DNA of 64,000 nucleotides. Source: an uncultured archaeon. Lineage in GTDB: Archaea; Thermoplasmatota; Penumbrarchaeia; JASLWR01. The notes under the pieces were generated by a model that saw only the letters and a program-made list of their open reading frames with translations, did no database searches and was not told where the DNA came from. The position numbers and the translations under genes were made by a program. Within the stretch, counting starts at the first letter, position 1, and each line of letters begins with the position of its first letter. Shown one piece after another: positions 46,730 to 46,906 of the stretch. The stretch covers positions 1-64,000 of the forward strand of contig CAYFHS010000008.1 in the NCBI GenBank assembly GCA_964342815.1, in the 5' to 3' direction.

Positions 46730-46906
46730 TTATCTGGGAGGGCTCCCTACCAGATCGGCAAGCCGACCTATTACTAACTTGATCCTCGACTTGTTTAATC
46801 GTAGAAGAGGATAGCGCCCACTTCGCTCCGCAACACCTATGGCGTTGCTGCTTCCTCGAAAACCGGATGGTTTCCTACGGGCGTTCGCCTGGGGGCCGCT
46901 GGTCTC
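46730..46906 (-). ncRNA. Candidate structured ncRNA of unrecognised family (copy 1)
   Basis: GC-rich intergenic stretch with several hairpins ending at an oligo-T run; core 46810-46883 homologous to 63751-63871; G-U pairs favour the minus strand. Confidence 0.55.

What the first reader, a model, noticed from the sequence alone, without database searches (positions are those of the whole stretch)
46730..46906. Unrecognised structured RNA motif present twice in the window with compensatory changes
Minus strand 46883-46810 reads CGCCCGU-A-GGAAACC AUCC GGUUUUC-GAGGAAGCA-GCAACGCC AUA GGUGUUGC-GGAG-CGAA-GUGGGCG-CUAUC. Plus strand 63751-63871 reads CGCUCGC-A-GGCU UACU AGCU-GAGGGCGCA-GCAAUACCU GAA AGGUGUUGC-GUAA-[two extra hairpins]-CGAA-GUGUGCG-CCAUC. 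Junction sequences (AGG, GAGG..GCAGCAA, CGAAGUG.GCGC.AUC) are conserved while stems vary and mostly keep pairing. G-U wobbles fix the strand in both copies. Copy 1 lies between the JAMM fusion and the EndoQ-like/mobB genes and ends in hairpins plus a T-run. It matches none of the tRNA, 5S, SRP, RNase P, riboswitch or ribozyme consensus patterns I recall, so it could be a new riboswitch, ribozyme, sRNA or non-autonomous mobile RNA family.
Basis: seen in the sequence. Interest (0 to 1): 0.8.

Follow-up and report, generated by a model that had tools for sequence, protein, structure and literature searches.

The report
Guide-bearing miniature mobile element family
The two "RNA motifs" are real. 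They are two members of a family of well over a hundred tiny (about 67-nt) folded repeat elements that have spread through the genomes of one group of marine archaea. Each element sits right after a 3-letter site that matches a short "guide" inside the element.

Summary
Both copies exist as described and no Rfam family matches them. They are not a two-copy RNA gene. A covariance model finds at least 126 copies in this genome and at least 134 in each of two related Thermoplasmatota MAGs. It finds one copy in each of two other relatives and none in the 32 other class genomes searched.

An internally looped hairpin (nCYGYA-H1-GARGx) stacks on a small three-way junction (yzC / H2 / RY-GNA-RY mini-hairpin / Gz'y').

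The internal triplet xyz pairs with the element's last bases and with the 3 nt flanking its 5' end. Filled and empty site pairs show whole elements (CYGYA...GNGz'y'x') inserted right after such a triplet, often nested or head-to-tail. Both window copies lie in insertions (about 310-330 nt and 228 nt) that are absent at the orthologous sites of the sister species.

Orientation relative to genes is random, which excludes a riboswitch or UTR role.

Best reading: a non-autonomous, guide-directed miniature mobile element that works like IS200/IS605 or REP elements. The mobilising enzyme is unidentified, and whether the active form is ssDNA or RNA is open.

Other first-stage notes on other pieces of this genome had already described this family.

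The parts
46814..46880 (-). Copy 1, the element proper (67 nt). On the minus strand: CCGUA 46880-46876; H1 46875-46858; GAGG 46857-46854; guide AAG 46853-46851; CA 46850-46849; H2 46848-46830; GGA 46829-46827; mini-hairpin GCGAAGU 46826-46820; GGG 46819-46817; terminal CGC 46816-46814.
   Evidence: Sequence read. Model alignment (51.4 bits) flags two non-standard pairs, n-1:x = C.A and y:y' = A.G. This makes copy 1 a slightly decayed member whose guide (AAG) no longer matches its CGC flanks.
46881..46883 (-). 5' flanking triplet CGC of copy 1 (target-side copy). It is identical to the element's terminal CGC.
   Evidence: Family rule.
46607..46939 (.). Intergenic stretch of 333 nt that carries copy 1 plus other repeat hairpins and a T-run (46722-46729, minus strand). 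The sister species has only 17 nt here.
   Evidence: G001:C26 joins the two flanking genes with 17 nt between the homology blocks. Homology stops at window 46606 and resumes at 46940.
46684..46711 (-). An 'empty' carrier hairpin (GGGCCUGCG-loop-CGCAGCCCC) from a second repeat family. In other loci this family carries a module inserted after its CGC.
   Evidence: more than 10 paralogues of window 46656-46732; pairs m9 and m38, filled versus empty.
63754..63867 (+). Copy 2, the element proper with cargo (114 nt). UCGCA 63754-63758; H1 63759-63770; GAGG 63771-63774; guide GCG 63775-63777; CA 63778-63779; H2 63780-63800; GUA 63801-63803; cargo 63804-63854 with two hairpins (63805-63828 and 63833-63851); mini-hairpin ACGAAGU 63855-63861; GUG 63862-63864; terminal CGC 63865-63867.
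   Evidence: Sequence read. Model alignment (42.3 bits) has all pairs standard and a 54-nt insertion. The guide GCG is complementary to CGC on both sides.
63751..63753 (+). 5' flanking triplet CGC of copy 2, complementary to its guide GCG.
63837..63840 (+). CAUC at the loop edge of the second cargo hairpin. This is an unoccupied target. Paralogues on contigs C27 and C22 carry a module with guide AUG inserted right after it.
   Evidence: pair m40: filled C27:30157, empty C8:63816-63855. (C22 and C27 sequences).
63658..63885 (+). Composite insertion of 228 nt (other repeat units plus copy 2). It is absent at the orthologous site of the sister species. It is inserted after GTTTTAC and ends in CTTCAC.
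   Evidence: The G001:C78 flanks abut at about position 16412; the similar element on G001:C116 lies in a different genomic context, so it is a paralogue and not an orthologue.

Best explanation
The motif is a miniature, non-autonomous mobile element of about 66-80 nt, longer when it carries cargo. It has multiplied to well over a hundred copies in one family of marine Thermoplasmatota.

**Fold.** One strand folds as nCYGY-A-[H1]-GARGx, followed directly by a three-way junction: yzC-A-[H2]-GKA-[RY-GNA-RY mini-hairpin]-GN-Gz'y'. The purine-rich strand GARGxyzC therefore acts as a splint. It pairs with the element's first bases plus the last base of the 5' flank. It also pairs with the element's last bases (shown by covariation).

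**Insertion rule.** The element proper runs from C1 to x'. It is found immediately 3' of a flank triplet that resembles its own terminal triplet and is complementary to its guide xyz. No true target duplication is made (shown by filled and empty pairs). New copies land in the loops and junctions of other repeats and directly in front of resident modules. This gives the nested and head-to-tail arrays seen.

**Mechanism (inferred).** Target and end recognition work by base pairing to the internal guide within a single-stranded folded intermediate. This is the logic of IS200/IS605 and REP elements, and implies a trans-acting strand-transferase that I could not identify.

**The window copies.** Copy 1 is a decayed member with a mutated guide. 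Copy 2 is an intact member carrying two cargo hairpins.
For: **Copy number and lineage restriction**
- The model finds at least 126 copies in G000, at least 134 in G001 and at least 134 in G003. It finds 1 in G002, 1 in G030 and 0 in 32 other class genomes.
- A scan of 185,579 species genomes returned real modules only from the two related MAGs.

**Structure**
- On 110 distinct copies, 96.1% of cells pair against 73% in shuffles. The covariation score is 0.672 against 0.251, and slid controls give 30-54%.
- Y2:R3 is C-G in 90 copies and U-A in 19, with none unpaired.
- n-1:x is CG 69 and UA 27. y:y' is CG 46 and UA 46. z:z' is GC 62 and UA 37.
- The mini-hairpin pairs are GC 54 / AU 45 and UA 52 / CG 44.

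**Guide and flank**
- n-1:x, n-2:y, n-3:z, z:z' and y:y' each beat all 2000 permutations.
- In G000 the 5' flank triplet equals the guide's complement in 23 of 50 modules and the 3' triplet in 24 of 50. Shifted control triplets give 0 and 1.

**Mobility**
- Both window loci are empty in the sister species.
- 22 of 50 modules have an empty-site paralogue at 86-100% identity.
- Where the two triplets differ (pairs m9, m32, m45, m49), the empty site keeps the 5' triplet. The 3' triplet therefore belongs to the element.
- 23 of 102 modules are followed head-to-tail by another module, and 12 of 102 are nested in one.
- Modules sit at many contig ends.

**Not cis-regulatory**
- 91 of 121 modules are intergenic. 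Orientation is random: 43 same against 37 opposite for the upstream gene, and 35 against 49 for the downstream gene.

**Single-strand use**
- G-U pairs number 180 against 15 A-C.
- The mini-hairpin loop is GNA in 78 of 110 copies. GCGAAGC is the classic DNA mini-hairpin, with Tm 76.5 C, whereas the related RNA octamer r(GCGAAAGC) melts at 39 C (PMC13037366).

**Guide logic in known systems**
- PMC3201880 and PMC5934647 describe it for IS608. PMC6006769 describes the REP guide tetranucleotide.
Against: - No mobilising enzyme was found. PF01797 (Y1 HUH) is absent from the G000 assembly, which is 89% complete.
- The Y1 genes of G001 and G003 are ordinary IS200-type genes. They have their own, unrelated end hairpins and no module within 1.5 kb.
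- No autonomous version with a gene as cargo was found. Cargo never exceeds about 120 nt.
- There is no replication-related strand bias of the kind known for IS608. Neighbours more than 400 nt apart are 25 same against 26 opposite, and there is no GC-skew link.
- Conserved single-stranded junction bases combined with freely varying helices are more typical of functional RNAs than of protein-read DNA hairpins.
- Gene calls used for the context statistics were crude ORF calls. Empty sites inside G000 are paralogues, not ancestors.
Confidence: 0.72

Rival explanations
1. The active form is RNA. On this view the module is a structured non-coding RNA, for example a self-cleaving or self-ligating ribozyme, or an RNA that is cut out and circularised. 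Its genes spread through an RNA intermediate, and the splint GARGxyzC aligns the RNA's own 5' and 3' ends.
For: - The pattern of conserved unpaired junction nucleotides with covarying helices of free sequence is RNA-like.
- G-U pairs make up 8% of all pairs.
- The 5' and 3' ends abut on one helix.
- Units sit in exact head-to-tail arrays, like multimers of rolling-circle RNAs.
- The 5' GUA and 3' GAA next to a stem loosely recall a hammerhead.
Against: - Orientation relative to transcription units is random, and 23 modules are antisense to both neighbours.
- No promoter or T-run signature goes with the modules.
- No Rfam ribozyme matches even at E<=10.
- The hammerhead CUGANGA box is absent.
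- A 2-bp GNA mini-hairpin is weak in RNA and very stable in DNA (PMC13037366).
- I did not search for reverse transcriptase genes, so no link to one is known.
Confidence: 0.15
2. The modules are host-recruited REP-like elements whose main role today is physiological. Possible roles are binding sites for a chromatin or topoisomerase-type protein, mRNA 3'-end stabilisers, or transcription barriers. Mobility would be only their origin.
For: - The modules are strongly intergenic: 91 of 121, against about 11% of the genome being intergenic.
- A GYAG tetranucleotide lies at the foot of H1, as in bacterial REPs (PMC3733652).
- T-runs are slightly more common on the outer sides of modules, 66 against 43. 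This suggests modules sit beyond gene terminators.
Against: - The family is absent from nearly all relatives, including the same-family genome G002 with one copy. It therefore has no general cellular role.
- Both window copies are missing from the sister species, and the neighbouring genes show no visible consequence.
- There is no orientation preference.
Confidence: 0.1
3. A cis-regulatory RNA (riboswitch or leader), or chance similarity between two intergenic regions.
For: A three-way-junction look with conserved junction bases. Copy 1 is co-oriented with its two neighbouring genes.
Against: - There are more than 120 copies next to unrelated genes, in random orientation.
- Copy 2 is antisense to both of its neighbours.
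- Reversed-pattern controls give 0 matches in G000, against 42 for the pattern itself.
Confidence: 0.01

Closest known systems
IS200/IS605-family single-strand transposons (IS608, ISDra2) and their non-autonomous derivatives
   Same: - The structure is strand-specific and folded.
- A short guide lies just 5' of a hairpin foot. Here xyz lies 2 nt before H2.
- The guide base-pairs both with the flank on the left and with the element's own 3' terminal bases.
- Insertion is immediately 3' of the short target, without duplication.
- Guide and target vary together. This is the natural counterpart of engineered retargeting (PMC3201880, PMC5934647).
   Different: - One guide serves both ends, instead of separate left and right guides.
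- The whole element is about 67 nt, with a three-way junction and a mini-hairpin.
- Hairpin sequences are free to vary.
- No associated Y1 transposase was found.
- There is no replication-strand bias.
- The target is 3 nt and tolerates a mismatch at its first base.
REP / REPIN elements with RAYT (TnpA-REP) in bacteria
   Same: - Short, highly repeated, intergenic and structured.
- A GT[AG]G-type tetranucleotide sits at the foot of a hairpin (GUAG in 81 copies and GCAG in 18, at H1).
- Lineage-specific expansions, clustered arrays and G-T pairs (PMC3733652, PMC6006769).
   Different: - REPs are single imperfect palindromes, usually mobilised as inverted doublets. These modules have three hairpins, occur head-to-tail or nested, and carry a covarying guide.
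- The two REP surveys I read list only bacterial phyla for GTAG repeats and REP-associated transposases.
- No RAYT gene was found here.
Integron attC sites
   Same: Recombination sites that are conserved in single-strand fold rather than in sequence, and that occur in tandem arrays. This comparison rests on my general knowledge.
   Different: The modules have no R/L boxes (no GTTRRRY) and no gene cassettes between units. They have an internal guide matching the flank. No link to an integrase was examined.
Internal guide sequences of group I / group II introns
   Same: An internal strand pairs with the sequences flanking both ends of the element and so defines the insertion site. This comparison rests on my general knowledge.
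   Different: The modules are about 67 nt against more than 200-400 nt for these introns. They lack the intron core motifs and have no Rfam match. Their orientation is independent of transcription, and the same guide bases pair with both sides.

Membership tests
Any Rfam 15 RNA family | Covariance-model match at or near the gathering score | tested here: not met
   There is no hit at the gathering threshold in the window except a tRNA. No hit at E<=10 covers either copy.
Hammerhead ribozyme | Three helices around a core of CUGANGA, GAA and a UH cleavage site | tested here: not met
   GUA and GAA are present, but the CUGANGA box is replaced by GARGxyzCA. In addition, GKA plus a mini-hairpin lies between H2 and the GAA. 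There is no Rfam hammerhead hit.
Riboswitch / cis-regulatory leader | A fixed position and sense orientation upstream of a functionally coherent gene set, at low copy number | tested here: not met
   There are at least 126 copies. Orientation is random (upstream gene same 43, opposite 37; downstream gene same 35, opposite 49). Twenty-three modules are antisense to both neighbours.
REP/REPIN-RAYT | GT[AG]G tetranucleotide 0-2 nt 5' of a hairpin foot | tested here: met
   G3-Y4-A5 plus the first G of H1 reads GUAG in 81 of 110 copies and GCAG in 18 of 110. GYAG variants are accepted in PMC3733652.
REP/REPIN-RAYT | The unit is a single 20-40 nt imperfect palindrome, typically in inverted doublets | tested here: not met
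   The unit has three hairpins and is about 67 nt. Close neighbours (under 400 nt apart) are 18 same-strand against 11 opposite. Head-to-tail junctions occur in 23 of 102 modules.
REP/REPIN-RAYT | A cognate single-copy RAYT gene flanked by the repeats | tested here: not met
   PF01797 is absent from G000. The hits in G001 and G003 score as IS200 (NF033573, 100-115 bits) and not as RAYT (22-26 bits against a cut-off of 80). No module lies within 1.5 kb of them.
IS200/IS605-type single-strand element | A guide 5' of a hairpin pairs with the left flank and with the element's right end | tested here: met
   Watson-Crick pairing is 88%, 74.5% and 55.5% for n-1:x, n-2:y and n-3:z. It is 94% and 89% for z:z' and y:y'. 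Each value beats all 2000 permutations.
IS200/IS605-type single-strand element | Insertion 3' of a short specific target without target duplication | tested here: met
   Filled and empty pairs m7, m8, m9, m32, m38, m40, m45 and m49. Where the triplets differ, the empty site keeps the 5' triplet. The two triplets are identical in only 29 of 110 copies.
IS200/IS605-type single-strand element | Mobilised by a Y1 HUH transposase that recognises hairpins near the element's ends | tested here: inconclusive
   No Y1 gene is in the 89%-complete G000 assembly. The Y1 genes of relatives have unrelated end hairpins.
IS200/IS605-type single-strand element | Orientation bias tied to the replication direction | tested here: not met
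   Neighbour concordance is 25 against 26. There is no association with GC skew. Replication origins are unknown in this draft assembly, so the test is weak.

The most novel reading that the evidence does not exclude
The module may be a new class of self-guided miniature mobile element. In this reading a 67-nt nucleic acid carries its own programmable 3-nt guide on a splint that aligns both of its ends with the target. It would be moved either by a strand-transferase unrelated to the known Y1 HUH transposases or by catalysis within the folded nucleic acid itself (an RNA or DNA that cuts and joins). It would be among the smallest guided transposable units known, and the first REP-like system described in archaea.
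Probability: 0.2. Interest if true: 0.85.

Novelty: new variant of a known kind. Interest (0 to 1): 0.62.

Why it matters
- **A natural record of guide retargeting.** Guide-directed single-strand transposition is so far known from IS200/IS605 elements, where retargeting was shown by engineering. Here at least 15 different guide triplets are each matched by their flanks. The minimal element could be synthesised and tested directly.
- **REP-like selfish DNA in archaea.** If the reading holds, it extends REP-like selfish DNA to archaea.
- **An unidentified enzyme.** The reading implies a mobilising enzyme in uncultured marine Thermoplasmatota that has not yet been found.
- **Genome structure.** The family explains much of the intergenic repeat structure and the assembly breaks of these MAGs.
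- **Annotation.** Motif hunters should mask these modules before calling new riboswitches or sRNAs in this lineage.

Tried and rejected
- **Rfam:** searched at gathering and permissive thresholds, with no family found.
- **MAFFT alignment of the two copies:** it misplaced the insertion and was unusable.
The x:x' and G4:+4 pairs are not above permutation. I replaced both with the nested hairpin plus three-way-junction model.
- **Hammerhead, twister-type and HDV-like topologies:** considered from memory and rejected on core sequence or helix order.
- **Bulge-helix-bulge intron:** the module lacks the two 3-nt bulges spaced by 4 bp.
- **'Orthologue' of copy 2 in G001 (L003):** only the element matches, so it is a paralogue.
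- **Y1 transposase as mobiliser:** not supported.
- **Autonomous element with a gene between H2 and the mini-hairpin:** none found within 6 kb.
- **Viral contigs:** one pattern hit, which has no hairpins and is not a module.
- **Bacterial pattern hits (Zoogloea and others):** they lack the hairpins and are chance matches.
- **T-run, GC-skew, neighbour-orientation and gene-strand tests:** no signal.
- **My automatic duplication-length calculation:** it was unreliable with mismatches, so I read the printed junctions by eye instead.
- **Literature searches:** they did not turn up a description of this family.

Full report
**Observation**

The block GAGGNNGCAGCAA occurs exactly twice in the window. 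Rfam 15 gives nothing for either region, at gathering scores or at E<=10. The motif is therefore real and unclassified.

**Not two copies but a large family**

- A loose descriptor run on the whole assembly (G000: 4.35 Mb, 116 contigs, 45% GC) immediately found dozens of further copies. Many were nested or in tandem.
- A degenerate pattern matched 42 times in G000, 68 times in the same-genus genome G001 and 77 times in G003, which belongs to another genus of the same family. Reversed-pattern controls gave 0 matches in these three genomes.
- About 395 other Thermoplasmatota genomes gave 0-1 chance-like hits. The one exception was a good hit in G030.
- A scan of one genome for each of 185,579 species returned real modules only from two MAGs. 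These are 'Thermoplasmatota archaeon ETNP2_MAG_1' and 'uncultured archaeon SRP077602_co2_347'. The bacterial hits lack the hairpins.
- A covariance model (R1) finds at least 126 copies in G000, at least 134 in G001 and at least 134 in G003, although only 139 of 484-685 candidates were scored. It finds one copy each in G002 and G030 and none in 32 other genomes of the class.
- nhmmer gives 121 hits at E<1e-3 in G000.
- True modules also occur in several marine metagenome data sets. None was found on IMG/VR viral contigs.

**Structure**

Sixty-three unique modules aligned by anchors, and then 110 distinct model-aligned copies (A3), give this unit:

n-1 C1 Y2 G3 Y4 A5 [H1] G1 A2 R3 G4 x y z C A [H2] G K A [R Y (G N A) R Y] G N G z' y' x'

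Results from the pair-counting tool:

| Measure | Observed | Control |
|---|---|---|
| Cells paired | 96.1% | 73% in shuffles |
| Covariation score | 0.672 | 0.251 in shuffles |
| Cells paired, partners slid by 1-3 columns | - | 30-54% |

Key pairs:

| Pair | Counts |
|---|---|
| Y2:R3 | C-G 90, U-A 19, none unpaired |
| n-1:x | CG 69, UA 27, UG 8 |
| y:y' | CG 46, UA 46 |
| z:z' | GC 62, UA 37 |
| C:G5' | CG 103, UA 5 |
| Mini-hairpin, first pair | GC 54, AU 45 |
| Mini-hairpin, second pair | UA 52, CG 44 |

Permutation p is 0.29 and 0.49 at its two variable pairs. It also competes with the mini-hairpin.

The supported fold has no pseudoknot. An internally looped hairpin (nCYGY.A.H1.GARGx, with a conserved G.A mismatch and a U.G pair) is followed directly by a three-way junction (yzC / H2 / mini-hairpin / Gz'y'). 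The strand GARGxyzC is thus paired along its whole length by the 5' end and by the 3' end of the unit, and the two ends abut.

G-U pairs outnumber A-C by 180 to 15, so one strand is the folded one.

**Guide and flanks**

- The three bases 5' of C1 are complementary to xyz far more often than chance. Watson-Crick pairing is 88%, 74.5% and 55.5%, against 57%, 42% and 39% in permutations. None of 2000 permutations reaches any observed value.
- The element's z' and y' pair with the guide at 94% and 89%.
- In G000 the 5' triplet equals the guide's complement in 23 of 50 modules and the 3' triplet in 24 of 50. Shifted control triplets give 0 and 1.
- At least 15 different guide triplets occur. The commonest are GCU 25, GUG 23, AUG 19 and GCG 16.

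**Mobility**

- *Copy 1 locus.* The two flanking genes are 78-79% identical to G001:C26 but are separated there by 17 nt. In G000 the gap is 333 nt.
- *Copy 2 locus.* The flanks are 81-82% identical to G001:C78 and abut there. G000 has 228 extra bases (63658-63885), inserted after GTTTTAC and ending in CTTCAC. The similar element I first took for an orthologue lies in a different context.
- *Within G000.* For 22 of 50 modules, the junction reconstructed without the module matches a paralogous locus at 86-100% identity.
- *Reading the junctions*. The inserted piece runs from C1 to x' and follows a triplet like its own last three bases. Where the two triplets differ (pairs m9, m32, m45, m49), the empty site keeps the 5' triplet. 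The 3' triplet is therefore part of the element and not a target duplication.
- *Targets* include the loop edge of a cargo hairpin of copy 2 (CAUC at 63837-63840, filled on C27 and C22). They also include the 3' side of H2 of another module, which gives nested modules, and the triplet in front of a resident module, which gives head-to-tail arrays. Of 102 modules, 23 are followed head-to-tail by another and 12 are nested.
- *Cargo* between H2 and the mini-hairpin reaches about 120 nt. No gene-sized cargo was found.

**Context**

- With crude ORF calls, 91 of 121 modules are intergenic, whereas about 11% of the genome is intergenic.
- Orientation relative to the upstream gene is 43 same against 37 opposite. 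Relative to the downstream gene it is 35 same against 49 opposite.
- There is no downstream T-run preference, no GC-skew link and no neighbour concordance.
- Copy 1 is co-oriented with its neighbours: a Prok-JAB protein upstream and a 419-aa protein without a Pfam hit downstream. Copy 2 is antisense to both of its neighbours, a DUF373 gene and a 361-aa ORF.
- This excludes a riboswitch or UTR role and gives no support for an sRNA gene.

**The two window copies under the new model**

- Copy 2 fits perfectly: guide GCG, with CGC on both sides.
- Copy 1 has CGC on both sides but guide AAG. This gives two non-standard pairs, so it looks like a decayed copy.

**Mechanism**

*Shown:* the fold, the guide-to-flank rule, the insertion boundaries and the lineage-specific expansion.

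*Inferred:* ends and target are recognised by pairing to the internal guide in a single-stranded intermediate. This is how IS608 works. There the cleavage sites are read by short guide sequences 5' of the end hairpins, and target choice can be reprogrammed (PMC3201880, PMC5934647). REPs likewise carry a guide tetranucleotide at a hairpin foot (PMC6006769, PMC3733652). The modules have GUAG or GCAG at the foot of H1.

The mini-hairpin RY-GNA-RY has a GNA loop in 78 of 110 copies, and GCGAAGC is among its forms. It matches the DNA mini-hairpin, which melts at 76.5 C, whereas the related RNA octamer r(GCGAAGC-type, r(GCGAAAGC)) melts at 39 C (PMC13037366). This leans towards ssDNA.

*Against the HUH version:*
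- There is no Y1 gene in G000.
- The Y1 genes of G001 and G003 are ordinary IS200 elements with unrelated ends and no nearby modules.
- No replication-strand bias is seen.

I put about 0.7 on 'guide-directed non-autonomous mobile element'. Within that, I put about 0.4 on an ssDNA, HUH-like route. I put 0.15 on an RNA-level element.

**Comparison and novelty**

The family works like IS200/IS605 and REP elements but fails membership tests for both. It has a single shared guide, a three-hairpin unit, head-to-tail rather than inverted arrangement, and no cognate Y1 or RAYT gene. The two REP surveys I read list only bacterial hosts for REP and RAYT systems. I class it as a new variant of a known kind.

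Other first-stage notes on other pieces of this genome had already described the same dispersed family. One (e1-5506847) gave essentially the revised lower helix.

Noticed in passing
window 46656-46732 (minus strand; hairpin about 46711-46684): A second repeat family: a hairpin GGGCCUGCG-(10-nt U-rich loop)-CGCAGGCCC with more than 10 copies in G000. Many copies carry a module inserted after the CGC. The copy next to copy 1 is unoccupied.
   Followed up: partly
window 63658-63750: Further repeat units upstream of copy 2 (TTGAMAAG...hairpins...TTTAC), with at least 20 paralogous loci in G000. One unit follows GTTTTAC and itself ends in CTTTAC. These units may therefore obey a similar rule of inserting after a copy of their own end.
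   Followed up: partly
L115 (G001:C158) and L114 (G003:C1), about 400 nt either side of the 163-aa ORF: An IS200-type element conserved between two genera. It has classical left and right end hairpins (CCAGnnCCTTTAGGnnCTGG), and its right end stops at ...GTAGTTTAC. It has no adjacent tnpB-sized ORF, and no copy was detected in G000.
   Followed up: partly
   Followed up: no
G000 contig ends (e.g. C1:1-62, C9:18-82, C16:20-55, C74:14-82, C29:87-151, C52:135-203): Modules lie at or within about 200 nt of many contig ends. This repeat family is probably a main cause of assembly breaks in these MAGs.
   Followed up: no
family-wide (A3 columns 206 and 272): The junction base K (G or U in GKA) and the middle base of GNG are correlated. 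GGA goes almost always with GGG, whereas GUA goes with GAG, GUG, GCG or GGG. This is not a Watson-Crick pattern. It may reflect a tertiary contact or subfamily history.
   Followed up: no
L035, L040, L048, L088, L102 (five Zoogloea genomes): A conserved Zoogloea locus matches the search pattern by chance in five species. It contains its own hairpin (CTGTACTGGAGTACAG) but not the module architecture.
   Followed up: no
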